64,000 nucleotides of DNA from contig NC_086097.1 in assembly GCF_963921235.1 (NCBI RefSeq), forward strand, positions 40,240,001 through 40,304,000. The letters are read 5' to 3'. Positions 4,691 through 51,815 of this stretch are shown here, one piece after another. Source of the DNA: Mobula hypostoma (lineage: Eukaryota). How positions within the stretch are numbered: the stretch's first letter is position 1; each line of letters opens with the position of its first letter. The position numbers and the translations under genes were made by a program. The notes under the pieces are model-generated. The model ran no database searches and was not told the origin of the DNA. It worked only from the letters and a program-made list of their open reading frames with translations.

Positions 4691-4928
4691 CATTGTGAGC
4701 TTTAAGAGTGTTTTAAGAATATTGTTTGAATTTAAACATGAATTAAATCACTGAAAATAAATGAACCGTGTTTTAAACTCCTTTGTTAGCCATAAGCATC
4801 TTCTCCTTAATGGGCGGGGGGGGGGGGGAACCAAGTGCTCGAATAGTGGATAATGGTAGTTACAATATTGGAATCTCAAAGTTGTATACTGTATACACAC
4901 TTCGATAATAAATGAACCTTTGAACCTT

Positions 4929-5505
4929 TATGAAGCTGATGGTCAAGGTAAAGTTTCGGTATGCCACCCTAAAAAAGATTTTAAAAAAATCAAATTCCTC
5001 CTGTCTACAAACAGGAATCCCTGATTTGAGAAGCCCTCCAGAGGATTTGGATACAATCATGGTGGTGGACAAGCCCCTTATGTGAAATTAGCGATGTTAT
5101 TCTGGTGGCCTTACATGTTGAGTGACTATAAGCAATTTGTTGCATATTGTAAGGAATATCTGGCCTATAATAAAGGAGAGTCCCAAGACCATCTACTATA
5201 AGATAAATAAAAGCAACTGCACCATTGCAGGTGTGGTAAGGTGACTATATTGACCTACTTCCTGTATCCCAAGGCAACCCACCATTTTGGAAACCTAATA
5301 AGTATACTTGTGATAATTGACCTTTGTACAGATATACGTGGTTAGTCTCCATGACAACTTGTAGTCAGACTGCAACCCCGTCACAGCACTCCAAAACTCC
5401 ATGTTCCCATATGCTGACACCCACACCTGCACGTATGCTGACTGAGTGTCTTCCGTTAGTGGTAAAGTCTTTCAAGCCATGTAGCCATGTGTGAACAACA
5501 GGCAC
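4929..5505 (+). pseudogene. pol: Foamy-virus-like integrase, N-terminal domain and first half of the catalytic core
   Basis: With frameshifts: YEADGQGKVSVCHP / QIPPVYKQESLI*EA / NHGGGQAPYVKLAMLFWWPYMLSDYKQFVAYCKEYLAYN / [17 protein letters not shown] / ILVIIDLCT / RYTWLVSMTTCSQTAT / VTALQ. Confidence 0.85.
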
Positions 5506-5507
5506 AG

Positions 5508-6045
5508 ATCAAAGTTCAAAAATTCAAAGTACATTTATTATCAAAGTAGGTATACGGTTTACAACCTTGAGATTCATCTCCTTACAGGCAGCCACAAAAC
5601 AAAGAGAACCCAAATAGAACCCATTGAAACAAAAGAAAACTTGAATACTTAATGTGCAGAGAGAGAAAAAAACAATTCATACAAAGAATAAAAGTAGGCA
5701 AATAGCACTTAGAACTGAAGTTCACAAAAGTGAATTAGTTGCAGGCCACGGCCTCAGTTCAGTAGAGAGACGAGTAAACCTCTTGGGGCAGCAAGCTGAA
5801 GTTCAGTGCAGAAATGAATAAATCTCCAAGCAGTGAGTTGAACACTGGCCTGACACTTGCCTCTGGCGCGGAAATCCTGACCTTTTCAAATTGGCCCAGC
5901 GCTTCAGTGGTCCAAACCTCAGGTTATTCATTGCTCTTGGACCTGGGCTCTGCTTTGCCTTGGGTCTGCCACATTGAATTGCCTCCAAGTATGCTCCAGC
6001 AATGGCCACACCTGGACTCATCCCCTCGAATTGGCCAAACGCGCT
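5508..6045 (-). mobile_element. Non-autonomous non-LTR element with Rex1-type 3' end, inserted in the integrase
   Basis: Begins caaagttcaaaaattcaaagtacatttattatcaaag; the same terminus occurs at about 14503, 54088 and, inverted, at 4865-4928 and about 45890-45920. Confidence 0.65.
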
Positions 6046-6049
6046 TTGC

Positions 6050-6498
6050 TGCATACAAGTGGAGTATAATACTTCATTCCAGCTTCTATCAAGTGGCAAA
6101 GTTGAGTGAAGGAATCGAGAGATTATGTAGGGCTTGGCAAAAGTGATCTACTATAGAGGCAAAATAGGCTACACTTGTCCATAAACAAAGTAGATTACAC
6201 CTCATTTCTTAACATACAATGTCCCCCTAAATACACCCCTGATTGCTAACTCAGGCCAACCATCGCCTACACCAGGGGACTGCAAAAGGAAAAAAAGTTG
6301 CATAAAAATAATTTTGACCCTAGTTTCCAAACTAAGTGGAAACTGCCTTGTCTTGTTACCCAGATTATCAACAATATGACTATGGCAATCAAGACTGGGT
6401 GGAGAAACAAGACTGTAAGTAAAGCTGTCTCCAAAGATAATATCAAACCTGTCCCAGTACGATTTACTCCCCCAGAACGAGTGGTGCTTTTATGTTAG
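6050..6498 (+). pseudogene. pol: Foamy-virus-like integrase, end of core and C-terminal domain
   Basis: SSGKVE*RNREIM*GLAKVI from 6089; PSFQTKWKLPCLVTQIINNMTMAIKTGWRNKTVSKAVSKDNIKP in ORF 6298-6498. Confidence 0.88.
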
Positions 6499-6589
6499 AC
6501 CGGTATATGGGTCCACCACAGAACTCCTACACCCCGACAAGAGGTGGATGTATTGAAAAGATAAAACACATGTTTAGATCTGAAAAGAA

Positions 6590-7255
6590 ATGAAAAACTT
6601 GTTCACTGAGGAACATCTCATTGATACATTGCCCAGGGATAATACATCCAGACTGCATTGTTGTTTACAGAGTAAGGCAGACTCAAACTTCAGGAGGAAA
6701 TGATGCTTTTGCTGTATTTTACTTTTACTATGTATAGTACTGTTAATTTCTGCCTTATTTACTATTTGCTTTCTCACAGACGAAGTTGCATTTAATGTGG
6801 AAATTGTCTCATCTGGCTCAGTCACCCCTAAAGCTTAATGACTCAGAATATTATTAGAGAGGATCTGTGATCAATAATTCTGCTTTAGATATCAATAAAT
6901 AGCCCTGATCTCTTAGTCATATGTGAACTAATACACTGAAACCCTAACCCTTGTCTGTGGCAAATTGATAGCTCCTGTCCACTTAAGTATTTACTCTGAT
7001 GTCATTGCAGATGAAATGAACGTATGGACAGACAAAGAACCACTTGCAGAAATGATTATTAACACCTTAACAAAACTGAAATATTCTAGCCCAGATATTG
7101 AAGGTCAACTAATAGAGGAATCCTTGACTTGCATCCCTTTTGAAGGGATACACTTGAAAGAAAAGTATAGACACTGTTATGTAATTGAATGATCCCACTC
7201 ATGGGAACATGTCTTCGAAATAGTTAGACTGGACCGTTGTGAAAACCCCTATTTT
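6590..7255 (+). pseudogene. env: Foamy-like env: leader peptide with signal/anchor helix and SU N-terminal block
   Basis: RRK*CFCCILLLLCIVLLISALFTICFL...FNVEIVSSGSV (6692-6825); LSIYSDVIADEMNVWTDKEPLAEMIINTLTKL...EKYRHCYVIE*SHSW...LDRCENP (6965-7250). Confidence 0.8.
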
Positions 7256-7284
7256 TTTTAAAGCAGATTTCTCCAGTAAACACA

Positions 7285-7878
7285 TATTATTTCACGAACA
7301 AACTCTTCTCAGGCTTCCAGCTGAGTACAGATATTGATTTTAAATGATGTTTTGATGATGAGCTCTGCCATCTTCATCAGGGATGATGTCTGGGCATGTC
7401 TAGTCCAATGGCATTTAAACCCCATCGTCCATCCTTCCTGATTAGTTAATCCTCATTCAGTCAGGTTTCCTCTGTCCCACCTTGTTTACAATTGAGTGAA
7501 ATCTTTATCTTTATTAAAATTATTTTCCTCTAGTTTTATTTCAATGGCTTCCTTCACCAAGTGGTCCCAAAAGCCATTGAAATAAAACTAGAGGAAAAGA
7601 ATTTTAACAAAGACCAAGGTCTCACTCTAAATAAGAACTGAAATTTGATAGTAAACAAGGTGGGACAGCAGAAACCTGATTAGATGAGGACTAACCAATC
7701 AGGAGGAACAGGTGATGGGGGTATAAATATTACTGCACTAGAAATGCCCAGGCATCACTCCTGATGATGGTGGTAGAGTTTATCATTGAAACATAGGTTA
7801 GAATCGATATCTGTACCCGGCTGGAAGGCCGAGAAGAGTTTATTCATCATATACTCTGGGAAAGCACTAGATCCTTTT
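7285..7878. mobile_element. Penelope-type inverted-repeat (fold-back) element inserted in env
   Basis: About 7295-7550 is an imperfect reverse complement of about 7575-7848 (aactcttctcaggcttccagc versus gctggaaggccgagaagagtt). Confidence 0.75.
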
Positions 7879-7910
7879 TTCATGTCTTATTGCACTTTCC
7901 CTTTTTGGCC

Positions 7911-8235
7911 AAAAAGGTATCTGAACATACTTACTATGAAGAGTTCAGATGTTCCCTTGTTTCCAATTATGGCTACTATTCCAATCCATTGTTAAATGTC
8001 ACAGTAACATAACAATTTTATGCATTTCTAGGTTATGTTCTAAATAGTTCAGTGAAGCCTTTGATTTGGGTTTCGCATGGGGAAGATCAGATGCTAAGAT
8101 CCACTGAAGCAGAACGTAAGATGAAACTAAAATGCTGGTCAACTGAAACTGGTAAATCCAATGGGCTTTTTAGAGATTTTATTCTTAGCGTCTTTTGTAT
8201 CTACCCAGATTTCTTATTTGCCCATAATTAAACAG
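7911..8235 (+). pseudogene. env: Foamy-like env SU middle block
   Basis: About 108 codons in one frame with two stops (about 8010 and 8229): FRCSLVSNYGYY...KLKCWSTETGKSNGLFRDFILSVFCIYPDFLFAHN*T. Confidence 0.8.
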
Positions 8236-8264
8236 TCGTTTAATTATGGGTAAATAATTAAACA

Positions 8265-11200
8265 GACCATAAGATAGAGGAGAAGAATTAGGCCACATGG
8301 CCCGTTGAGTCTGCTCTGCCATTTCATCATGCTGATCCATTTTTCCTCTCAGCCCCAATCTCCTGTCTTATCCCCATATCCTTTCATGCCGTCTCTAATC
8401 AAGAATCTATCACCTCTGCCTTAAGTATACCCAATGACTTGACCTCCACCACTGCTTGTGGCAAAGGACTCACAGATTCACCACTCTCTGGCTAAAGAAA
8501 TTCCTCCTCATTTCTGTTCTAAGAGGATGCCCCTCTATTCTGAGGCTGTGTCCTCTAGTCTTTGACACCCCAGCATATCCTCTCCACATCCACTCTGTTG
8601 AGGCCTTTCAACATTCAATAGGTTTTAATGAGGTCACCCTTCATTTTTCTGAATTCTATTGAGCACAGGTCCAGAGCCTCATATGAAAAGGCTTTCAATC
8701 TTGGAATCATTTTTGTGAACTTCCTTTGAACCCACTCCAATGTCAGCACATTATTCTTAGATAAGTGGCCTACAACTGCTCAGAATACTCCAAGTGAAGC
8801 CTCCCCAATGCTTTATAAAGCCTCACCATTACATCCTTGCTTTTATATTCTAGTCCACTCAAAATGAGTGCTAACATTGCATTTGCCTTCCTCACCGCCT
8901 ACTCAACCTGCAAGTTTGCCTTTAGGGAATCCCGCATGAGGACACTCAAGGCCTTTGCACCTCAGACTTTTGAATTTTCTTTCCATTTAAAAAATAGTCT
9001 ACACTTTTATTTCTTCTACCAAAGTGCATAACTATACACTTTCTGACACTGTATTCCATCTGCCACTGGTTTGCCTATTCTCCTAATCTGTGTAAGTCCA
9101 TAAATTCTCTTTACTTCCTCAAAACTACCTGCTCCTCCACCAATCTTCATATCATTCACAAACCTAGCCACAAAGCCATCAATCCTGTCATGTAAGTCAT
9201 TGACATATTAATGTAAAAAGAAGCGGTGCCAACACAGACCCCTGTGGAACACCAGTGTTCACCAGCAGCCAATCAGAAAAGGCTCCCTGTATTTGTACCT
9301 TTTACCGACTGCCAATCAGTTAAAGCTTTATCAAAGCTAGAATCTCTCCTGTAATACCATAGGTTCTTAACTTGTTAAGCTGCCTCATGTGTGGCACCTT
9401 GTCATCGGCCTTCTGAAAATCCAAGCACAAATGATCTACTAATTCTTCTTTGTCTATCCTGCTTGTTATTTCTTCAAAGTATTCCAATAGATTTGTCAGG
9501 CAAGATTTTTCCTTGAGGAAACCATGCTGACCATGGCCTATTTTGTCATGTGGCTCCAAGTACCCTGAAACTACGTCCTTAACAATTGACTCCAACATTT
9601 TCCCAACTGCTGAGGTCAAACTAATTGGCCTATAAATTTACCTTTTTCTGTCTCTCTTTTCCTGAAGAGTGGAGCGACATTTGCAATTTTCCATCCTCTG
9701 GAACCATGCCAGAATCCAATAATTTGTGAAAGATCATTACTAACATCTCCTGAATCTCTTCAGCCACCTCTTTCAGAACTCTGGGGTATATCCCATCTGG
9801 AACAGCTGGCTTATCTACCTTCAGACATTTCGCTTTCCCAAGAATCTTCTCCCTAGTAATGGCAACTTCATGCATTTTTGTCCCTTGACACTCTCAAACT
9901 TCCATCATACATTTAGTGTCTTCCACTGATGCAAAATACTTATTCAGTTCATCCACCATTTCCTCGTCCTCCATTACTACCTCTCCAGCATAATTTTCTA
10001 GTGGTCCAATATCTACTCTCGCCTTTCTTTTACACTTTATGTATCTGAAGAAACTTCTGGTATCCCTTTAACATTATTGGATAGCTTATATTCATGTTCC
10101 ATCTTTTCCTTCTTAATGACTTTTTAGTTGCTTTCTGTTTCTTTTTAAAAGCTTTCCAATTCTCTAACTTCCCACTAATCTTTGCTCTATTATATACACT
10201 TTCTTTGGTTTTGTGTTGGCCTTGACTTCTTTTATTAGCCATGGTTTTGTCATCTTTCCTTCAGAATACTTCTTCCTCTTTGGGATGTATATATCTTGTG
10301 CCTTCCGAGTTACCGGGAGAAATTTCAGCCATTGCTGCTTTGCTGTCATCCCTGCCAGTGTTCTTTTCCAATCAATTCAGGCCTTTACTCCACTGTAATA
10401 CTGATACATCTGACTAGCTTCCTTTCTCAAATTTCAGTGTGAATTTGATCTTATTATGGTCACTTCACTAAGGGTTCCTTTACTTTAAGCTCTCTAATCA
10501 ATTCTGGTTCATTGCACAACACCCAATTCAGAATAGGGAACCGCTCGTGGGCTGAATCATAAACAGCTCTAAAAAGCCATCTCATAGGCATTCTAGAAAC
10601 TCCCCCCTCTTGGGATCCACTACAAACTTGATTTTCCCAATTTTACTGCATATTAATATCCCCCATGACGATCATAACTTTTGATATGCATTTTGCATCT
10701 CTTGTGATAATTTGTAGGCCATATCTTTACTACTGCTTGGGGGTCTGCATACAACATTGTATCATTTCTTAATGCATGCATGCATTTCTAAATGACAATA
10801 AATGAGGACTGAGAGTTCTCATAATCTAACTCCCATCAGGGGCTTTTACCCTTGAAGTTCCTTAGCTCTACCCACAATGATTCAACACCTTCCAAGCTTT
10901 TGTGACCTCTTTCTAATAATTTGATTTAATCTTTTACCAACGGTACTACGGCACCACCTCTGCCTACCCATCTGTCCTTTCGATATAATATGTATCCTTT
11001 GACATTAAGCTCCTGGCTATGATTCAGTGGTGCCTATATGTCCTACGTGACAATCTGTAACTGTGCTACAAGTTCATCTACTCTATTCCATGTACTGCAT
11101 ACATCCAAATATAACCCCTTTGTTCCTATATCACCTTTCTCGATTTCGTATGCCCTTTACATTTTTGCCCTATTGTCAGACTCTCCTTGCTAGCAGTCTC

Positions 11201-12740
11201 ACTACACATTGCCTCTATTTTTAAACTAACTACCTCATCCTCAGCATTATCACTCCAGTGCCCATCTTCTGCCAAATTAGGTTAAATCTCTGGAACAGAG
11301 CTAGCAAACCTGCCCACAAGGATATTGGAGCAACACACATTAAATGCTAGAGGAACTCAGCAGGCCAGAGAGCATTTATTGAAAAATGTACAGTCAACGT
11401 TTTGGGCCGAAACCCTTTGGCAGGACCAAAACACCAACTGTACTTTTTTCCATGGATGCTGCCTGGCCTGCTGATTTCCTCCAGTATTTTGTGTGTGTTA
11501 CTCAGATATCTAGCATCTGCAGATTTTCTCTTGTTTGCAAGGATATTGGTCCCGTTTGGATTCAGGTGTAATCCATCTCTTTAGTACAGGTCGTACCTCT
11601 CCCAGAAGAGATCTCAATGATAAATAAATATGAACCCCTGCTCTCTGCACAAGTTCCTCAGCCACGCTTTCATCTACCAAATCATCTTTTTCTTACCCTC
11701 ACTGGTACATGGCATCAATCCAGAGATTACCACTTTGGAGGTCCTGTTTTTCAGCTGTCTACCTAGCTCCTTAAAATCTCTGTTCTCCTCACCTTTCCTA
11801 CCTATGCCATTGGTGCCAATATGTACCAAGACTTCTGGCTACTCCCTTGAGAATTCTGCAGACCTGATCTGAGACCCTGGTACCTAGGAGGCAACATAAT
11901 GTACTGTCCGGGTGTCTCTGTTATGCCCACAGAAACTCATCTCTGTCCCTCTAACTATGGAACCTCTTTTCAGCACTGCAGTCCTCTTCATCCCTCTTCT
12001 CTTCTGAGTCACTGCACCAGACTAGGTCACTGTGGCTCCCACCTTGTAAGTTGTCCCCCTCAACAATATCCAAAGTAGTATAACCTATTATTGAGAGAAA
12101 TGGCCGCAGGGATACTCTGCACTGGTTGTGCATTTCTTTTCCTTCTCCTGACAGCCGCCCAGTTACCTGCCTCCTACAAATTAGAGGTGACTATATCTCT
12201 GTAGCTCCTATCACCTCCTCATTCTCCTGTCTGAGCGGAAGGACGTCAAGCTGCAGCTCCAGTTCTTTAATACATTCTCTGAGGAAATGCAGCTCAGTGT
12301 AACTGGTGCAAGTGTGGTTATCCGGAAGACTTGAAGTCTCCCAGAACTCTGACATCTCACACGCAGGACAAAACACTGCTCCTGGAGCCACTCTCACTGC
12401 AGTACTGTGCCCTAACAGATGAGAAATGAAGAATTCAGAAGAAAAATAGAAACTTATGAGATACTTACCTTGCCCAAGGTTGATCTCACCCTAGCCTGAT
12501 TAGCCAAAGCCACTCTAAACACTGGCCCATTCACCACAATGGCCGTTCAAGACTTGCGCTTAAAATATTTTTGTTCACCTTTTCAAATGGATCCTGCTCA
12601 ATGGATCTTGATCAATGGATCCTTCTTCAACCTGCATTTTTTGGAGTCCAACTCCAAAAAACTGACGTGAATTTCTGTCTTTTTAATCTTGACTGTCCAC
12701 CTGATTTAAGAGACAGTGTCTGACGTAATGATGTCAGTGT
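8265..12740 (-). mobile_element. Near full-length degraded CR1 LINE (ORF1 and ORF2) inserted in env
   Basis: 3' tail at 8265; RT motifs QHGFLKEKSCLTNLLEYFEE and DFQKADDKVPH; ORF1 CPACEM...IKELELQLDVL zinc-finger/leucine-zipper region at 12191-12397. Confidence 0.92.
11329..11537. mobile_element. Short Penelope-derived palindromic element with 12-bp TSD
   Basis: caaggatattgg at 11317-11328 and 11538-11549; internal aaatgctagaggaactcagcaggcca versus tggcctgctgatttcctccagtattt. Confidence 0.85.
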
Positions 12741-12749
12741 AAGGTGCCT

Positions 12750-13592
12750 ATTGTTGGTTTGATTGTAATTGAAGTAAAGGGCTGCAGCTTTTGTTAAGCA
12801 CATAAAATGACTCTCACCTGTTTTCTTGACAAAATCCTACTATTTTCAGACAAGTCTTCAATTATTGCTGTGTATTCAGTTGCATGATGTTGTTGTCAAC
12901 AGGCAGAGGTAAAAAAAACAATTTTGCTCTAAACAGTTTTCATGATTTTTAACAAAATATTAGAGTGAAATTGCCTGCATTGACAGTGCACATTCTCACA
13001 ATAACACTGACCTGATCCTTTGGTTCACTCGGAAGGGAGAAATTTCTGATGAAAACATACTGCTATCAGAGGCTCACTCGCTTTTTAAGGTTTATAGAGG
13101 AAATGACTCTTTGGAGTAATTTGATCATTTAATCTATGTTGCATATCTCAAAACAGAAACACAAGTCCAGTTTTAAGGAATGATTTTTGATAGATGCAAC
13201 GAAGAATGTTCCATAAGGACTTGATATTCATTAACAATGACCAGAAGAAACTAAATTAAAATTGAACTTAATCAAATCGCAGTAATATTTCTCTGTATAT
13301 TATGAGAATAACTGAAATGACACAATAAAAAGTGAGAAACACCTCCTTTCACAAGTTTCCTTTCCAGACTCATTTTTCATACTAAACCTTTGACTAGCTT
13401 AACGCTCCAGTTGAAATGATAGCTAAGACTTTTCCAGCTGTTGCAAATTTAGCTTCTGCAGCAGCAAATTCAGTTCCTGGGTGTGTTGGCACTACTTTAA
13501 ATTGGACTTAGAGACGACTTTTTGCAGTTTTGCAGTGGAGAATTCCCTTAGCTATTGGAATTATTGTTTTCATATTCTTTTTGTTGAGATGA
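12750..13592 (+). pseudogene. env: Foamy-like env TM C-terminal part with membrane-spanning domain
   Basis: 13407-13592: PVEMIAKTFPAVANLASAAANSVPGCVGTTLNWT*RRLFAVLQWRIPLAIGIIVFIFFLLR*. The 12750-13400 part is assigned mainly by position. Confidence 0.7.
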
Positions 13593-14502
13593 AGTCTGCA
13601 AGGATGGAAGTGTGGTGACTTTTGTGTTTTGTACAGCAGTTCCACTCCTAAGGCTTCATTAACTTCCATACCTAACCTGCACTACTGTGGGTTTTATCTC
13701 ATATGGTATATACTTCCTCGTACTTGCCTTTTACCTATTCCTCTGGTTCATCCTTAATCCTAGAAGAGTGAAGAGCAGGGGCTGCCCTGATCCTGCTACC
13801 CTTGCAACTCTCCTTTACCTAGTTCTGATCACTAACGTGACACATGGGTATTAACTGGTCTAATAACACAATCCCACAGAAAGATGAGTATTCAAAGATT
13901 ATTTTTTTACTCATGTATTTGGATGTTGCATATTTACTTTGCAACATGGGTAACTTCATATATATGGTCCTTAACATTTTATACCTTGTAAATGCCTTGT
14001 TCATTGCTAATGATGATACTACTCTATCGTGGTTTACTACTTTGACTTTTAAAACCATCTGTCATATACTTTTTATACGTTGGGAAAAGAATTATCAGGA
14101 GGAGAAAGATCATTATCCCTGAGGAAGGCAATAGTCCTGATAGCCTTTTTACCTATTCTGTTGTGATTTCTTCAGAAATGATGAGGTAATCCTAGTACCT
14201 CTAAGGTCAATAAAGTGTTTTATTGTCACAAGGTAGAAATAATTAAATGTGCTTTACTTACTCTTTAGGTACAAGTATATTGTATGTGATACTCCAAGGA
14301 ACACTAAACCTACCAATACTCCTATTCATATTATATCTAATATTACATTTACATTAATAATTTGTAAATGTGGTTGATAAAATCCCATGGTTTGACAGAA
14401 CAGATTGAGTAGTCCTTGCTCAGTTAAGTTTTCTGGGAAAACATACAAGTTCTTATTTTGGTCCAATCCTTAACAAAGTAAAGGGGGAAGAAATGAACAA
14501 TT

Positions 14503-15120
14503 AAAGGTTCAAAGGTTAATTTATCATCAAAGTGTTCAACTCTGAAATTCTTCTTCTCCAGATAGCCACAAAACCAAGAAAGAAAAGAACAGCAGCACGA
14601 TCATCCACCGCCAAACCCTCCCTCCCTGCACGAAAGAAACAAATAAAAATGGAACAGGCCCATCAACCCCCAATCCCCCTCTCCTGCACACACAAAAAAA
14701 CTGAGAAATATTGGTTTAAAAAAAAGAATAGAGAAAACTGTAAGACTGAAAAAAGAAGTCTATAGTCCAAGTCCATTCCCTCTCTAGTAGCAGAGTGATC
14801 CTACCAGCGATCAAAAGGCAGTCTCCCCTCTCCAGAAGCAGAACGATCCCACCAGAGATCAAAAGGCAGGCAGCCAGCGCTCACCCTTTGCAATCACCTC
14901 AATTGTTTCAATCTCCCTCGTCACTTTAATAAGCGAACAGTGGAAGCTTTAATCAGCAAAATGGAGTCGAACATCGGCTCGCACCTCATATCACATGAGG
15001 TTTGTGCTCGCTGGCTCTGTCTCCTGGAATCCTCTCAGAGACTGTAGAGCGCTGAAACACCCAAAAGATCTCCAAACTGCAAATCGCAGGCTCCAACAGT
15101 CCAAAATCCCTTTCAATTAT
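14503..15120 (-). mobile_element. Non-autonomous non-LTR element with Rex1-type 3' end
   Basis: aaggttcaaaggttaatttatcatcaaagtg terminus shared with the 5508 copy. Confidence 0.6.
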
Positions 15121-18218: not shown

Positions 18219-18837
18219 TTAGACACATCAAAGTTGCTGGTGAACGCAGCAGGCCAGGCAGCATCTCTAGGAAGAGGTACAGTCGACGTTTCAGGCCAAG
18301 ACCCTGCGTCAGGACGAACTGAAGGAAAAGTGAGTAAGAGATTTGAAAGTGGGAGGGGGAGGGGGAGATCCAAAATGATAGGAGAACATCGACTTCTCTA
18401 ACTTCCGCTAATGCCCCACCTCCCGCTTGTACCCCATCTGTTACTTACTTTTATAAACATTCTTTCTCTCACTCTCCTTTTTCTCCCTCTGTCCCTCTGA
18501 ATATACCCCTTGCCCATCCTCTGGGTTCCACCCCCCCCCACTTGTCTTTCTTCCCGGACCTCCTGTCCCATGATCCTCTCATATCCCCTTTGCCAATCAC
18601 CTGTCCAGCTCTTGGCTCCATCCCTCCCCCTCCTGTCTTCTCCTATCATTTTGGATCTCCCCCTCCCCCTCCCACTTTCAAATCTCTTACTAACTCTTCC
18701 TTCAGTTAGTCCTGATGAAGGGTCTTGGCCCGAAACGTCGACTGTACCTCTTCCTAGAGATGCTGCCTGGCCTGCTCCATTCACCAGCAACTTTGATGTG
18801 TGTTGCTTGAATTTCCAGCATCTGCAGAATTCCTGTT
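18219..18837 (+). mobile_element. Young Penelope-like 3' fragment with inverted terminal duplication and TSD
   Basis: 18222-18387 is a near-perfect reverse complement of about 18637-18803; tgagtccaag flanks at 18209-18218 and 18838-18847. Confidence 0.9.
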
Positions 18838-23750: not shown

Positions 23751-24913
23751 GTGGTTCGTCCATTGTCATCAATGAAGACTTCGATACTATTAGTCACTTT
23801 GAGACTGGATGCGATGTGTCCAAAGATGACTGGTCAGGCCAATTCGGGCGCGGAATGTCCTGGCACATGTTGGGCAGACATGTGTAGGCACTGCAGTTGT
23901 TGCGCTGGTGGCTCTGGACTTGCGCAGCTCGCGCTTATGTTGTGCTTCAGCAATGCGCCTTGGTTCGTAAGCTTGACAGCCCTTGTGGATGAGGCCGCGC
24001 CAGGTAGGGCGGTTTTGTGCCAGCATTTCCCAAGAGATCGTGTCTATGTCAAGCGACTTCAGCGAGGCCTTTAGTGTAACATTTCTTCTGCCCTCCATGC
24101 GAGCATCTTCCAGCAGAGGGTTCCCCAAAAAGGAGCTGCTGGAGTATGCGCTCGTCTGGCATGAGGATGACATGACCTGCCCACTGGGTCTGTGCTCTCA
24201 TCAGCAGTGTGTGGACTGATGGTAGACTTGCTCTAGAGAGAACTTCAGTGTCTGGTACTTTGTCTTGCCATCTGATGCCTAATATTCAGTGAAGACAAGT
24301 CATGTGGAAATGGTTGAGCTGTCTTCCATGCCTTTGATACACAGTCCACGTTTCACAGGCATACAGGAGGGTAGTGAGTACCACAGCTCTGTAGACCTTC
24401 AGTTTTGTTGCTGGACTGACTCCTCGACGTTCCCATACAGTGGAGCACAGTCTACCGAAAGTAGAACTTGCCTTCGCTATTCTGCAGTTAATTTCTGTAT
24501 CAATAGTCACTGCTCGGGAGAGAGTGCTGCCAAGGTAAGTAAACTGGTCCGCTGCCTGTAGTTTCTGTCCTTTGACTGTGATTTTCGGTTCTGTGTACAG
24601 TGCATGAGGGCCAGGCTGGTGCATGACTTCGGTCTTTTTGATGTTGCTGGTGAGTCCAAAGTTGTCACAAGCCATGGAGAATTTGTCCATATTGACTTGC
24701 ATCTCTGGCTCCGAGCCAGCATACAGGGCGCAGTCATTGGCAAAAAGGAAGTCTCTCAGAACAGTCTCCTTCACTTTGGTAATAGCTTGAAGTCTCCCCA
24801 GGTTGAAGGGCTTCCCATCCACTCTGTACTTGAGGCTAATTCCAGCATCACTGTCCTGGAAGGCATCATTCAGCATGGCAGAAAACATCATGCTGAACAG
24901 TGTGGGTGCGAGG
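23751..24913 (-). mobile_element. RTE LINE 3' half (second family, younger)
   Basis: ORFs 24286-25020 (LAPTLFSMMFS, DFLFAND, LLYACETWTVY) and 23790-24173 (CPTCARTFRARIGLTSH). Confidence 0.92.
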
Positions 24914-25170
24914 ACACTAATCTTAAAGGAAAGCACAACCCAGAAAAATGAAGAAATTATCAATATAGAAGAAAAAATTAAGCAATGGAATAGCGTGACC
25001 CTGCATGGAAGGGTCCTCATGATCTGAGCAGATTAGATGTTGACAAGGAAGTGTCAAATACCTGGTACATAGTTGGAGACTGCTTTCCAGGAACAAAGGG
25101 GTTGCTTGTAGTTTTGCAGTAAACAGGTGGTTAACAAAAAAAAATTATTAAAAATTTATAATAAAAGACC
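24914..25170 (+). mobile_element. R4/Dong element, third fragment
   Basis: NLK...EEKIKQWNSVTLHGR/PHDLSRLDVDKEVSNTWYIVGDCFPGTKGLLV. Confidence 0.78.
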
Positions 25171-32112: not shown

Positions 32113-34388
32113 ATAAATTGACTTTATTTCTTATATCCTTCACAGACATGAGGAGTAAAAATCTTTGTTACTTCTCCATCTAAATGTGTAATGTGCAATC
32201 ATAGTAATTTATAATAAATAGAACAGTCAATGTAATATAGAGTACACTCAAATCAGCATGAGTTAATCAGTCTGATGGCCTGGTGGAAGAAGCTGTCCCA
32301 GAGCCTGCTGGTCCTGGCTTCCATACTGCAGTACTGCTTCCCGGATGGTAGCAGCTGGAATAGATTGTGGTTGGGGTGACTCAAATGCCCAGTGATCCTA
32401 TGGGCCCTTTTCACACACCTGTCCTTGTAAATGTCTTGAATCATGGGAATTTCACAACTACAGATGTGCTGGGCTGTCCACACCACTCTCTGCAGAGTCC
32501 TGCAATTAAGGGAGATACAGTTCTCATACCAGGCAGTGATGCAGCCAGTCAAGATGCTCTCAATTGTGTCCCTGTAGAAAGTTCTTGGGATTTGGGGGCC
32601 CATACCAAACTTCCTCAGTTGTCTGAGGTGAAAGAGGCACTATTGTGCCTTTTTCACCACATAGCTGATGTGTACAAATCACGTGAGGTCCTCAGTGATG
32701 TGGATGTCAAGGAGCTTAAAGCTGTTTACCCTCTCAGCTGCAGATCCATTGACATCAATGGAGGTCAGCCTGTCTCCATCCCTCCAGTAATCCATTACCA
32801 GCTCTTTTGTTTTTGCAAAATTGAGGAAGAGGTTGTTTTCTTGACACCACTGTGTCAGTCCCTGTAGGCCACCTCATTATTGTTTGAGATAAGGCCAATC
32901 AATATAGTGTCGTCAGCAAATTTAAGTAGCAGATTGGAACTGTGGGTGGTGATACAGTCATGGGTATACAGGGAGTAAAGGAGGGGACTCAGTACTGTAT
33001 TGAGAGTCAGAGGGTTGGAGGTGAGGGAGCCCACTCTTACAACCTGCTGGCGATCTGACAGGAATTCCAGGATCCGGCAGCACAAGGCAGGGTCAAGGCC
33101 GAGGTCTCTGAGCTTCTTGTCGAGCCTGGATGGAACAATGGCGTTGAATGCTGAGATGTAGTCCAAGAACAGAACTCTCATATAAGCCTCCTCCTTCTCC
33201 AGATGTGTAAGGACAGTATGTAGAGCAGTGGCTATTGCATCATCTGTCGATCGGCTGTGTCAGTAGGCAAATTGTAGGAGGTCCAGTTTGGGTGGTAGCA
33301 AGCTGCAGATGTAAGCCCTAACCAGCTTCTCAAAGCATTTGCTTATTGAGGTGAGTGCGACAGGACGGCAGTCGTTCAGGCATGTTACCTTGGTCTTTTT
33401 TGGTACAGGGACAATGGTGGATAATTTGAAGCAGGAAGGCACACTACACTGGGAGAGGGAGAGATTAAAAATGTCAGTAAACACACCTGCCAGTTGTGCT
33501 GCACATCCTGAGTACTCGCCCTGAGATGCCATCCGGTCCCACAGCCTTGCGACTGTCCACTCGTTGGAAACATCTGCGTACCTCAGCCTCAGAGATGGCC
33601 AGGTTGCAGGCTGTAGCGGTGGCTTTCCTCAGAGGCTCAGAGTTAGCGACATCAAACCAAGCATAAAAGCAATTGAGCTCAACTGCAAGAGAGGCTGTGA
33701 ATGTTGGCGGCACAACATTTGGCTTTGAAGTCTGTGATGATATGCAGGCCTCCTCAAATCATGTATGTTGTCTGTTGTGGATCTTGACTCAATCTTGTCC
33801 GTATATTGTTGCTTTGCAGCCTTGATAGCTTTGCTCAGATCATAGCTGCTTTTCTTGAGCTCCAGCTGATTGCCAGCAATGTAAGTTCTATGTCATGTGG
33901 TAAGTGCTGCTTGCATGGAACTATACTTCCAGGGTTTCTGGCTCAGGAAGACCCTGACAGACTTCTGCAGGACAACATCATCGATGAACTTCTGGATGAA
34001 GCACGTGACTCCATTAGTGAACTTGGAGACATCCTGATCATGGAAGGCATTTCAGTGGACGTTATCAAAGCAGTCCTGCAGCATGGAGGCTGATTGGTCG
34101 GACCAACAGTGGATGGTGTTAACTATGGCCGCCTCTTGTTTCAGCTTCTGCCTGTACGTCCGCAAAAGCAGTATCGAAGAGACCTGATTTTCCAAAAGCT
34201 GGCCGAAGGAGAGCTTTGTAAGTGTTGTGGAAGGGAGTGAAGCAGTGGTCAAGTGTGTTATCTCCACGAGTGCTCACCTGGATGTGCTGACAAAACTTGA
34301 GGCTTTCGTCAGCAAAGCTCATTTAAAGTCACTGATGATGATGAAGGCAACCTCTGGGTGTGCAGTCTCCAGCGTGTTGATGGTTCAT
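32113..34388 (-). mobile_element. Rex1/Babar non-LTR retrotransposon
   Basis: [51 protein letters not shown]. Confidence 0.93.
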
Positions 34389-40449: not shown

Positions 40450-43400
40450 TCAGAGCCATAGAGAAGTGCAGCACAGAAACAGGTCTTTTGGCCCATCTAG
40501 TCCTTGCCAAAAGTATTTAACCTGCCTACTCCCATTGACCTGCATCAGGACCTTTGCTCTCCATAACCCTGCTAGCCATGTACTTATCCAAACTTCACTT
40601 AAACGTTGAACTCGAGCTTGCATGGACCACTTGTGCTGGCAGTTCATTCCACACTCTCATAACCCTCTGAACGAAGAAGCTTCTCCTCATGTTCCCCTTA
40701 AACTTAAACCCATGATCTCTGATTGTAGTCCCACCCAACCTCTGGGGAAAAAGCCTACTTGCATTTACCCCATCTATATCCCTTATAATTTTCTATACCT
40801 CTACCAACTCTTCTCTCAATTTTCTATGTTCTAAGGAATAAAGTCCTAAACTATTTATTTTTCCTTATAATTCAGGTCCCTGTACTCCTTCAAACTTGTT
40901 TATATCTTTCATGTATGTAGGTGACCAAAATTGTACACAATATTCCAAATTAGGCCTACCAGGGTCTTATACAACTTCAATACAACATCCCATCTTCTGT
41001 ACTCAATGCATTGATTTATGAGGCCAGTGTGCCAAAAGCTTTCTTTATGACCCTGTCTACCTGTGTTTCTGTGTTCAATTATGGACCTGTATTCTCAAAT
41101 CCTTTTGTTCTACAACACTCCTCAGTGCCCTACCGTTCACTGTATAAAACGACACTGGTTGGTCCTACTGAAGTGCAACACCTTGAACTTGTCTGCATTA
41201 AATTCCATCTGTCATCCTTCAGCCCATTTTTCCAGCTGATGCAGGTAACTCTGTGCAAGACATGATAACCTTTCTTGCTGTCCACCATATCCCCAACCTT
41301 GGTGTCATCCACAAGTTTGCTGGTCCAATTATCCACATTAACATCCATATCACAGCTATAGATGACAAACAACAACGAACCCAGCATTGATCCCAGCGAT
41401 ACACCACTAGTCACAGGCCTCCAGTCAGAGAGGCAGACATCTACCTCTACTCTCGGGCTTCTCCCAGAAAGGTAATGTCCAATCCAATTTTCTAACTCAT
41501 CTTGAATGCCGAGCAACTGAAACTTTATGACCAGCCTCCCATGCGGGATCTTGTCTTTTCGTGTGTTTACTTTAAAAACTAATGACATTATGGTCGCTGG
41601 ATGCAAAATGTTCCCCAACACAAACTTCTTTCGTCTGCTCTTTCTCATTCCCTAATAGCAGATTATCCATTGCACACACTCTCAATAGGACTTCTACGTA
41701 CTGACTAAGGAAACTTCCCGGAACACATTTGACAAGATCTCATCTAGTCCTTTTACAGTATGGGAGTCCCAGTCAATTTGTGGAAAATTAAAACTACCTA
41801 GGATAACAACCTTATATTTCTGTCACAGTGGGGCACTGGTAACAGACCCAAATGCAAGACACAGACACTAAAATACAAGGAACAGGACTTGACTAGAGTA
41901 GGGACGTGACAGGATACAGACAAGGATCAGGGACAAGAACACAAATTTGGGCTAGGGAAAGCAGGACCAGGACTAAAAACTATGGACTAGGAGGCAAGGT
42001 TTCAACTCCAAGCCTGAGACTGGACAAGTACCCAGAACCTGGGTCTTGTCTCAGGCCCGGACGTCAAAACCAGGCAAGGACATGGCATGGCTGCAGGCTG
42101 GGGTCTTGGGTCTCAAGCTTGGCTGCGGGATCGTCGAGGCTAGGGTTCTTGGAGCTTGGCTGCAGGATCGTCGAGGCTAGGGTTCTTGGAGCTCAGAGAC
42201 AAACTGGGAACCGAACATCAACATAGAGCCAGGACTTATCCTTCAATAAGCCAGGATTCATCTTTAACACAACACTAACGTGAGACAGGACAGAACATAG
42301 ACATAGAGCCAGGACTTATCCTAAGACAAGCCAGGACTCAACTTCATCTCCACACCAAGGTGGGACAGATCCCTCCATCAGGTAACAGCAGAACAGCCAG
42401 ACTTGCCCCACAGAGGCAAGGACAAGACAAGACAGCAGAACAGCCTGTCTTACTCCAGAGAGGCAAGGACAAGACAGATCCCCCCACAGGGCAACAGCAA
42501 AACAGCCCAGCTTACCCCACAGAGGCAAAGACAAGAAGAGACAAACACCAAAGAACAACAGACAGTGCCATCTCTGCTCCAGGGAAGCTCCAAGTCTCAG
42601 TTTGGCCAGCAACCTCAGCTGGCTACAGAAACAGCCAGATCCCTACCTAGCTCAGAGTGGCTGGCAGCCACTCAGCTGGCCCAGGAAACAGCCAAATCCA
42701 TACCACAAAGACAGCTCCAACTACCAACAGCAAGGCTCAATAAAGCAATGGTTCTCCAACACAGCCTAAAGATGACAAGTGGCCGCTCTAGCCTTCCACC
42801 AGCAAGTCACTCCCAGGGGAACTGACAAGACAAACCAGCAGCCCACAATCAACTCCAAGGCTACTTACTTATATTCCAAGCCTCAAGATGGGAATCAGGT
42901 GCCTATGATTAACTCACCCAAACGAGGGACAGCTGGAAGACCCGGAGTCCTGAGTCCACGGACCGGACCGTGAACCGGAATGTGGACTTCACGGACCAGA
43001 CCGGACCATGACAGTTTCTTGCAACAGTCTGCGTTCTCTCTAAAAATTTGTTCATCTCACTCCCTGTAATATAGATCCATTAATTTGCTAATGTGCCATA
43101 TCTTTCTAATTTCTCAATTCCACTCATAACACCAGTCTCCAGTCTGACCTGACTGAGCACTGCCATGACATTTTCCCTGACTAGTAATGCCACCCCTCCT
43201 CCTTTAATCCCTCCCACTCTGTCATTTCTGAAACAAAGGAAGCCCCAAATATTGAGCTGCTAGTCCTGTTCCTCCTTCAACCAAGTCTCACTAATGGCTA
43301 CAACCTCCTAATTCCAGATGTTGATCCATGCCCAGAGCTCATCCACCTTTTTTATGATACTTCTTGCATTGAAATACAGGCAGCTCATGACACTAGCTGC

Positions 43401-45210: not shown

Positions 45211-45920
45211 CCTCGTGGTAAGAGGGCTGCAGGCTGGTGCACAAGCAGATATTTGACCCCATTTTGCCTGTTATAGCTTCCATTGTTCACTAATTAATGC
45301 AACAAAGGGGATTCAAACATCAATGCGAGTGCTGAAGTTTGGAGATGGTTCAGATGTTCTGACACTCTACAGTCTCTGAGAGGATTCTGGGAAGCAGAGG
45401 TAGTGTGCACAAACCTCGTACTGGTCAGGCTGCAGGATGGGGCACAAGCTAATGCTTGGCACCATTTTGCCAATTAAGGCGATAAAAACATTGTACCGGA
45501 GAGGGGAGAGCCTGCCACTGCACCTAGAGAGCGTTGCACAGGTTTATTCTGTGTTTTGGATGCGGACTTGGACTATAAAATTTTTTTTGTTCAATATTAT
45601 AGTTTTTATATTCTATGTATTTTCACCCAATCTTCTCATTGTTTTTTCTGCTAGGAGGGGAATTTGCGGGTTGATGTGTCCGTATTTTTGTGCAGGAGGA
45701 GGGATTTAGGGGTCGATGTGTCATTTTGTTTGTTTTTTGTGCAGGAGGAGGGACTTGGGGGTTAACGTGCCTGTTCCATTTTAGTTTGTTTTTATTTTGT
45801 GGGGAGGTGGGCTTTAGGGGTTGATGATCGTGCTGCCTTTCTTGGTTTCATGGCTACCCAGAGAACTGAAGAATTTCAGCGTGGTGTACTTTGATAATGA
45901 AGTAAACCTTTGAACCTTTT
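45210..45920 (+). mobile_element. Non-autonomous element with Rex1-type tail and internal repeats
   Basis: Ends tactttgataatgaagtaaacctttgaacc; repeated tttttgtgcaggaggaggga units; 45381-45407 duplicates 44353-44379. Confidence 0.55.
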
Positions 45921-51184: not shown

Positions 51185-51485
51185 AGAATCTATAAAAACC
51201 TAGAATAGTACAGGCCAAAAACCATTTGGCCGCTTGTGCCCGAACCAGCTCTTTACTCAGCATACTCACTCAATAGGCCCTTACTGCCCAACGAACCCAC
51301 ACTGTTCAATTACAATGATGTAACCAGTTAGCTACTGACATTTATGTCTTTGCAATGTGAGAGGAAACTGGACCATCCAGAAGAAACCCACACGGTCGCG
51401 GTCACTGGGAGAATATACGAGCTCCCTAGTGGTTACGTTGAACCCAGCTCACTGGTGCATTAATAGTGTTACGCTATGCCGGCAC
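51185..51485 (-). mobile_element. Degraded V-SINE
   Basis: tgtgagaggaaactggaccatccagaagaaacccacacgg. Confidence 0.65.
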
Positions 51486-51494
51486 CCATCAAGA

Positions 51495-51815
51495 AAGATT
51501 AGTTTATCTGTCATATGTACATCGAAACATTGAAATACACAGTGAAATATGTTATTTGTGTCACTGACCAACAGAGTGCATGATGTGCTGGGGGCAGCCA
51601 ACACGTGTCACCATTCTTCTGGCGCCAACACAGCATGCCCACAACTTACTAACCTGTACATCTTTGGAAAGTGGGAAGAAACCAGATCACCCAGAGGAAA
51701 CCCACAGGGTCACAGGGAGAGCGTACAAACTGCTTACAGACAGCTGCGGAAATTGAGTACTGATCGCGGTACTGTAAAGCCTTATGCTAACTGCTATGCT
51801 TCCATGGTGTGCACC
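51495..51815 (-). mobile_element. V-SINE (same family as 540-832)
   Basis: agattagtttatctgtcatatgtac tail; gtgggaagaaaccagatcacccagaggaaacccac. Confidence 0.8.

What the first reader, a model, noticed from the sequence alone, without database searches (positions are those of the whole stretch)
12750..13592. Env TM anchor resumes beyond a 4.5-kb CR1
Seen: KTFPAVANLASAAANSVPG...LFAVLQWRIPLAIGIIVFIFFLLR ~ recalled PFV DVWPAAASALQGIGN...FSLLGYLKPILIGVGVILLVILIFK, a small-residue membrane-proximal region followed by a Pro-containing membrane span. Its position after the CR1 5' end is what is expected if the CR1 landed inside env.
Basis: partly seen in the sequence, partly recalled or inferred. Interest (0 to 1): 0.75.

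Follow-up and report, generated by a model that had tools for sequence, protein, structure and literature searches.

The report
Foamy-virus env fossil split by CR1
A short stretch just past a 4.6-kb jumping gene matches the membrane anchor of foamy-virus envelope proteins and is likely the tail of a dead foamy-like retrovirus in what is probably a shark or ray genome, with about 1 kb of its envelope gene likely lost where the jumping gene landed; this is a known kind of viral fossil.

Summary
The quoted peptide is real (13425-13589, + strand) but has an unmentioned stop at 13509 and fills only a fifth of the interval. Against a profile of 27 natural foamy-virus (FV) Envs, 13380-13592 lands on the Env C-terminus: 17.2 bits, 0 of 1000 codon shuffles, best of 1194 window tiles. 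All 27 FV Envs align there; none of 8 lentiviral or betaretroviral Envs gives a comparable match. Left of the LINE lie FV-like integrase and Env residues ~70-391, in order. Three corrections. The LINE's 5' end is at ~12846, so 12750-12846 is not env. 12847-13379 shows no detectable FV similarity. About 335 Env residues are unaccounted for, most likely deleted at the junction. Three other organisms share the LINE junction, and related copies without it exist. No gag, RT, accessory gene or LTR pair was detected. New member of a known kind; modest interest.

The parts
4929..5342 (+). Decayed FV-like integrase: zinc-binding domain and start of the catalytic core
   Evidence: Pfam Integrase_H2C2 E 9.5e-5, below the curated cut-off; best PDB hits are PFV integrase, E 0.005; tblastn to FV Pol residues 782-895, E down to 3e-5; FV Pol profile E 1.5e-4
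5500..5930 (.). High-copy repeat inserted in the integrase (edges approximate)
   Evidence: Depth 82,000-126,000 in bin 5362-5692 in 4 of 4 runs; 5515-5575 matches 4871-4934 inverted
5928..6459 (+). Rest of the integrase core and C-terminal SH3-like domain
   Evidence: FV Pol profile positions 930-990 (E 7.8e-4) and 1083-1125 (E 0.037); 8 of 10 PDB hits are integrases, the named ones PFV, best E 0.0077; Pfam SH3_11 E 0.11
6500..7287 (+). env, first arm: leader peptide with first hydrophobic span and SU N-terminus, FV residues ~70-271 (start inferred)
   Evidence: 18.9 bits, ends at residue 271, 0 of 60 shuffles; 8 of 15 tiles land in order
7288..7853 (.). 566-nt palindromic high-copy insertion (MITE-like) inside env
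   Evidence: 74% self-complementary over 586 columns; depth 29,000-49,000 in bin 7348-7678
7854..8235 (+). env, second arm: first half of the receptor-binding domain, FV residues ~270-391
   Evidence: 17.4 bits, ends at residue 386, 0 of 100 shuffles; local alignment to profile 345-391; weaker under the protein-level model, 18 of 200 against the whole profile
8214..8267 (.). Junction scar: 20-nt inverted copy followed by a 14-nt direct re-copy of the flank
   Evidence: 8214-8233 against 8238-8257 inverted, 19 of 20; 8224-8237 against 8254-8267 direct, 13 of 14
8263..12846 (-). Full-length, decayed CR1-type LINE, 4.58 kb
   Evidence: RVT_1 E 1.5e-14 and GDSL esterase E 3.4e-5; 3' tail like sister copies in the window; 5' end from loose ends behind 12840; the same 5-mer at 8263-8267 and 12847-12851
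12847..13379 (+). Low-copy family sequence between LINE and anchor; probably diverged env ectodomain, not shown
   Evidence: No FV Env similarity; depth of the same order as the env arms; related contigs begin to match at 12847; base make-up A 0.35, like FV env at 0.32-0.34
13380..13592 (+). env end: membrane-proximal region and membrane span, FV residues ~905-980; stops at 13383, 13395, 13509 and 13590
13593..14500 (+). Further low-copy family sequence where accessory genes and the 3' LTR would lie; not identified
   Evidence: Depth 155-316 over 13306-14298, as for the env arms; no Tas or Bel2 profile hit and no second copy in the window

Best explanation
The stretch 13380-13592 matches the C-terminal membrane anchor of foamy-virus Env and is likely the end of env of one dead foamy-like provirus, which a CR1-type LINE split inside env, with about 1 kb of env likely deleted at the junction. 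Shown: FV-like integrase, Env residues ~70-391 and Env residues ~905-980 lie in order on the + strand; a palindromic element and the LINE interrupt env; every frame is broken by stops; three other organisms carry the same LINE-flank junction. Inferred: an ancient FV-like virus entered the germ line and left some tens of related loci; this copy decayed; the LINE inserted by target-primed reverse transcription, primed where its tail repeat matches the target; the second half of the receptor-binding domain, the furin site, fusion peptide and first heptad repeat were lost during that insertion or in a later repair beside it, which left the inverted-plus-direct scar at 8214-8267. The remnant would make no protein. 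12847-13379 is most likely the diverged second half of the TM ectodomain, by position only.
For: Anchor: 17.2 bits at profile end 982; 0 of 1000, 0 of 1000 and 1 of 1000 composition-keeping shuffles; best of 1194 tiles. 27 of 27 FV Envs align best within residues 902-984, 22 of 27 with at most 4 of 200 shuffles as good; 8 of 8 non-FV Envs give only 11-18-residue matches. The two top frameshift-aware peaks in 128 kb are the first env arm and the anchor. Left arms: 0 of 60 and 0 of 100 shuffles, continuous across the palindromic insert, so this Env keeps FV spacing where it can be measured. Integrase: FV Pol hits, and none at the integrase from the lentiviral or betaretroviral Pol ORFs at E<0.05. 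Depth 110-455 on both sides of the LINE in 4 of 4 runs. Gap: 178 codons against ~515 residues; profile 401-900 found in none of 426 tiles, top 10.0 bits, where 4 of 4 control tiles score 13-19. Related contigs without the LINE go on before 12847 with other letters: 22 in X5, 21 in X11, and X2 record 17; by eye these letters are unlike the window's left flank. Target-site deletion is a described outcome of non-LTR insertion (PMC2881922, passages).
Against: 12847-13379 cannot be placed on FV Env, even when forced into the expected position (141 of 200 shuffles as good), although the TM ectodomain is well conserved among mammalian FVs. The pre-span part alone is weak: 30 of 1000 and 9 of 500. Under the protein-level model a background stretch on the - strand ending near 6351 scores 25.6 bits against 26.4. 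Pfam's foamy Env model and the PDB gave no hit for any env piece, and tblastn with FV Envs gave none at E<0.05. The span is less hydrophobic than in FVs and is followed by a stop after 2 residues, where FVs have 9-17. The same 5-mer at both LINE ends looks like a target-site duplication, which a deletion during insertion would not predict. No contig was seen that links the two env arms. All reference Envs that carry a name are mammalian.
Confidence: 0.72

Rival explanations
1. The LINE inserted cleanly, with a 5-nt target-site duplication, into an env that was already about 335 residues shorter than mammalian FV Env, either family-wide or by an older deletion.
For: The same 5-mer sits exactly at both LINE ends, and both LINE ends are intact.
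Against: Four of the five letters on the left also belong to the LINE's tail repeat. Related contigs carry other letters before 12847 (compared by eye). The first 390 residues keep FV spacing. An Env without furin site and fusion peptide could not work as a class I fusogen (PMC11468914, passages).
Confidence: 0.11
2. The two sides come from different elements: the anchor is FV-like but belongs to another provirus or a rearranged piece, or 12847-13379 is an unrelated low-copy insert.
For: 12847-13379 has no FV similarity; depth over 12975-13305 is about 1.5 times that of the neighbouring bins; the left junction carries a rearrangement scar; no contig links the arms.
Against: Order, strand and spacing fit one provirus; depth is of one order across the arms; contigs of other organisms run through 13139-13565 and, apparently as one 1275-nt record, 12994-14267, though these are probably orthologues and so not independent.
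Confidence: 0.11
3. The peptide is a chance reading of A+T-rich DNA: small residues followed by a hydrophobic run.
For: 40 equally hydrophobic stretches in the window; a 25.6-bit background peak; no Pfam or PDB hit; the site was first picked by eye.
Against: Block shuffles that keep the small-then-hydrophobic make-up reach the score 0-1 times in 1000; best of 1194 real tiles by 6 bits; FV-specific; right strand and order.
Confidence: 0.06

Closest known systems
Foamy viruses (Spumaretrovirinae), Env gp130; 15 genomes and 12 proteins
   Same: Order integrase-env; N-terminal hydrophobic span; SU residues to ~391; C-terminal membrane-proximal region and span.
   Different: Broken in every frame; no furin site, fusion peptide or heptad repeats found; about 335 residues short; no tail after the span; no gag, RT, tas, bel2 or LTR pair detected.
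Foamy-like ERVs of fish and amphibians: CmiFLERV, CoeEFV, NviFLERV, AciFLERV (PMC5512871, passages); ERV-Spuma.0-Sca (PMC10699275, passages)
   Same: Decayed germ-line copies with FV-like pol, often carrying other mobile elements.
   Different: PMC5512871 detected only pol in the ghostshark, and PMC10699275 reports no Env domain detected in its shark and jawless-fish elements; here env is recognisable. No sequence comparison with these elements was possible.
Cartilaginous-fish endogenous foamy virus (Wang, Chen, Cui 2023, J Virol 97:e0181622)
   Same: By its title, the same kind of element in the host group inferred here.
   Different: Unknown: only the title was seen, in the reference list of PMC10581153; the paper is not held. 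This element may belong to that family.
CR1-clade LINEs (label recalled, not from a repeat library)
   Same: Esterase-type first ORF, RT, short tandem 3' tail, about 4.6 kb.
   Different: Endonuclease domain not detected by Pfam at E 0.01; carries its own nested palindromic insert at 11321-11510.

Membership tests
Foamy-like endogenous retrovirus | Integrase closest to foamy viruses | tested here: met
   FV Pol hits only among the fetched retroviruses; PFV integrase best in the PDB. Gypsy and fish epsilon integrases were not available as rivals, so this is not a phylogenetic placement.
Foamy-like endogenous retrovirus | RT groups with spumaviruses in a tree | not testable with these tools
   No RT of this element in the window; no whole genome held.
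Foamy-like endogenous retrovirus | env homologous to FV Env, downstream of pol | tested here: met
   Three collinear pieces, 17-19 bits, 0 of 60, 0 of 100 and 0 of 100 shuffles; Pfam's own model gave no hit.
Foamy-like endogenous retrovirus | Two membrane spans in Env (leader peptide and C-terminal) | tested here: met
   6713-6826 on profile 70-106 (weak alone; in order); 13521-13586 on 950-971. Architecture from PMC11468914, passages.
Foamy-like endogenous retrovirus | Furin site, fusion peptide and heptad repeats between SU and the anchor | tested here: inconclusive
   Not found in 426 tiles; either deleted in this copy or too diverged.
Foamy-like endogenous retrovirus | Accessory genes between env and the 3' LTR | tested here: inconclusive
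   No Tas or Bel2 profile hit at 13593-14500; PMC5512871 reports an amphibian accessory region with no similarity to FV genes, so a blank is expected either way.
Foamy-like endogenous retrovirus | Paired LTRs, primer-binding site, gag | tested here: inconclusive
   No second copy of 13593-14500 in the window and no Gag profile hit at the element; the 5' half appears lost or lies elsewhere. The primer-binding site was not searched.
CR1-clade LINE (8263-12846) | Esterase-type ORF1 followed by RT | tested here: met
   Lipase_GDSL_2 E 3.4e-5 (below cut-off), RVT_1 E 1.5e-14.
CR1-clade LINE (8263-12846) | Short tandem-repeat 3' tail | tested here: met
   One tail unit here; further units in 3 of 6 sister 3' ends printed.
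CR1-clade LINE (8263-12846) | RT groups with CR1 rather than L2 or other clades | not tested
   No reference LINE sequences were available.
Co-opted (domesticated) env gene | Intact reading frame | tested here: not met
   4-22 stops per frame in each env part, longest open stretch 86 codons; two large insertions.

The most novel reading that the evidence does not exclude
An undescribed foamy-virus lineage of rays or sharks, present as some tens of loci, whose Env already has the mammalian FV layout (leader-peptide span, receptor-binding domain, C-terminal anchor). One insertion is shared by species about 10% apart in neutral DNA, so it would give a dated minimum age for the FV-type fusion protein in cartilaginous fish, where the papers read here found only pol.
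Probability: 0.3. Interest if true: 0.55.

Novelty: new member of a known kind. Interest (0 to 1): 0.3.

Why it matters
Foamy-like ERVs with nested mobile elements are well described in fish, so the locus itself is ordinary debris. Its value lies in env. The two shark studies read here found no Env (PMC5512871, PMC10699275), and FV Env shares a structural core with paramyxo- and pneumovirus F proteins (PMC11468914). An env recognisable at both ends, at a site shared by several species, is a usable fossil for the age of that fusion protein. A 2023 paper on cartilaginous-fish foamy ERVs, seen by title only, may already cover it.

Tried and rejected
Pfam on env pieces: no foamy Env hit. PDB by sequence: nothing for three env pieces (only a lectin and P-II proteins at E 0.4-1.6). 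phmmer against 1.84 billion representatives with the first env arm: 2 hits, both tandem-repeat proteins, rejected as composition artefacts. Word-index searches with an env piece and the integrase: 0 of 158 and 0 of 39 candidates; the FV TM profile found 35 proteins, all 40% or more like the first query, none obviously from fish. No viral contig related to the integrase. tblastn of FV Envs: nothing at E<0.05. hmmsearch of the Env profile: no single domain significant, though four of the top eight distinct places fall in order in this element. Placing 12847-13379: two loose alignments (profile 423-516 and 713-751, 16-19 bits) are noise-level and were rejected; forced placements failed. Gag, Tas and Bel2 profiles: no hit at the element. 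Rfam: none. No RNA holder listed; this says nothing on expression. In one search the joint table was filled by repeat copies (15 of about 12,700 shown), so a joint across the LINE could not be seen. The language-model atlas search was not run, so look-alikes there are untested. No structure was predicted: the frames are broken. Paper searches showed no paper on a ray foamy env in this library; two J Virol papers are not held. No supplements were opened; those of PMC5512871 and PMC10699275 may hold related elements.

Full report
Observation. The frame has further stops at 13383, 13395 and 13509; the last lies between the two quoted halves. The peptide fills about a fifth of the stated interval. 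Its best 19-residue hydrophobicity is 2.19, lower than in 15 of 15 FV Envs (2.76-3.31), and 40 stretches in the window's six frames reach that value. The look of a membrane span is therefore no evidence by itself.

Reference set. A motif scan of the viral collection gave 23 retrovirus genomes. I took 15 as foamy viruses by their ORF layout and 8 as lenti- or betaretroviruses (the labels are mine, from layout and recall, and several FV genome lengths match named FV records). Twelve more FV Envs were added, 27 in all. I built Env profiles and wrote two frameshift-aware aligners, one on residues and one on codons with a mutation model. Their penalties were set by hand, so only comparisons with shuffles and with real tiles carry meaning.

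The anchor is FV-like. Under the residue model the two highest peaks in 128 kb of both strands are the first env arm (27.6 bits) and the anchor (26.4), but background reaches 25.6. Shuffles of 12847-13600 reach 26.4 in 0 of 150 trials against the whole profile and 1 of 500 against its end. Under the codon model 13380-13592 scores 17.2 bits and ends at profile position 982. That score is reached by 0 of 1000 codon shuffles, 0 of 1000 shuffles that keep the pre-span and span blocks apart, and 1 of 1000 three-block shuffles; the tile over this site is the best of 1194 real tiles, 18.5 bits against 12.5. The pre-span part alone is weak (30 of 1000). In pairwise alignments 27 of 27 FV Envs match within residues 902-984, 22 of them with at most 4 of 200 shuffles as good; the 8 other Envs give 11-18-residue matches, two of them (z about 3) near residue 520, far from any anchor. 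Pfam, the PDB and tblastn saw nothing, so the signal is real but faint.

The rest of the provirus. FV-like integrase lies at 4929-5342 and 5928-6459, split by a high-copy repeat. Env follows: 6560-7287 ends at FV residue 271 (0 of 60 shuffles) and 7854-8213 at residue 386 (0 of 100). In sliding tiles, 8 of 15, 4 of 6 and the last 3 of 14 land in order. A 566-nt palindromic element separates the first two arms without loss of register. Depth of contigs from four other organisms is 110-455 over the integrase, the env arms and 12975-14298, against tens to hundreds of thousands over the repeats. The tool warns that depth is no copy number; with single contigs at about 6-15, I infer some tens of related loci. 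Gag, RT, Tas, Bel2 and a second LTR were not detected. Every frame is broken.

The LINE. On the - strand it has an esterase-type first ORF and RT, and its 3' tail matches sister copies at 8264-8271. Its 5' end is at about 12840-12846: 50-69 contigs in each of 4 of 4 runs leave the window there with unrelated flanks. So 12750-12846 belongs to the LINE, or at least to a repeat joined to it. Contigs from three other organisms bridge that junction: 5 differences in 376 nt (X5), 29 in 294 (X11), 55 in 592 (X15). X5 also bridges the 3' junction (record 22); for the other runs no such piece was among those listed. Both provirus and LINE are thus older than species about 10% apart. No host rate was measured, so I give no date.

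The gap. The left arm ends at FV residue ~391-400 and the anchor piece starts at ~905. Between the LINE and the anchor lie 534 nt, 178 codons, where FVs have about 515 residues. By the numbering in PMC11468914 (passages; the furin motif of my reference falls at 568) that span holds the second half of the receptor-binding domain, the furin site, the fusion peptide and both heptad repeats. The 534 nt match no part of the profile, and profile positions 401-900 are found in none of 426 tiles while 4 of 4 control tiles score 13-19 bits. This counts against a plain resumption of env, and the identity of 12847-13379 stays open. Related contigs without the LINE start to match at exactly 12847 and carry some 200 further letters before it: 22 in X5, 21 in X11, and one listed record in X2; no such row was among those shown for X15. 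By eye those letters are unlike the window's left flank. The left junction has a 20-nt inverted copy and a 14-nt direct re-copy of the flank, the kind of scar that template switching during repair leaves (my knowledge). The same 5-mer stands at both LINE ends, but four of its letters are also the LINE's tail unit. The simplest account is insertion into env plus loss of about 1 kb at the junction. Target-site deletion is a described outcome of non-LTR insertion (PMC2881922, passages); a clean insertion followed by an adjacent deletion fits as well, and I cannot tell the two apart.

Host. No host gene was found in 22 long ORFs (3 RT hits). That the host is a cartilaginous fish is inferred: from my recall of the LINE 3' ends, and from two earlier AI notes on this genome, which I did not check.

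Comparison with what is known. Foamy-like ERVs are reported from amphibians and fish, including the ghostshark, where only pol was detected (PMC5512871, passages). A catshark element is reported with no Env domain detected (PMC10699275, passages). The elephant-shark ERVs with env in PMC4422223 (first of two parts read) group with snakehead and epsilon viruses. PMC6955096 (passages) uses Env as a query for FV-like ERVs. A 2023 paper on a cartilaginous-fish endogenous foamy virus was seen only as a title and could not be read. The element works like, and passes the testable marks of, a foamy-like ERV; the RT tree that defines membership could not be built.

Verdict. Observation partly confirmed, interpretation right in its core and wrong in two details. 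A new member of a known kind. Interest 0.3.

Noticed in passing
window 7288-7853: 566-nt palindromic high-copy element, 74% self-complementary, inserted in env without loss of register.
   Followed up: partly
window 11321-11510: 190-nt palindromic element nested in the LINE, with relatives at 18223, 18706, 20781, 29120, 51893 and 62660; depth above 500,000.
   Followed up: no
window 12705-12840: The first ~135 nt of the LINE's 5' end are shared by many copies that differ further in (49-66 contigs per run go loose before 12705, agreement about 0.68), as if subfamilies swap the inner 5' UTR.
   Followed up: no
window 4871-4934, 5515-5575, 14502-14535, 45729-45919: Pieces of one repeat family bound the provirus on both sides and also sit inside its integrase.
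   Followed up: no
window 24289-25032 (-) and 32858-33259 (-): Two further RT fragments (E 3.9e-4 and 5.8e-7) that did not match this LINE in the self-search; element type not determined.
   Followed up: no
window 51481-51681: Weak match to the protease part of three FV Pols (E 0.011-0.023); perhaps a fragment of an LTR element.
   Followed up: no
window 33608-33862: Top single hmmsearch domain for the FV Env N-terminus (4.3 bits, E 0.29); no other env piece nearby, treated as background.
   Followed up: partly
window 42364-42543: Three diverged copies of a 47-71-nt purine-rich unit inside overlapping long ORFs.
   Followed up: no
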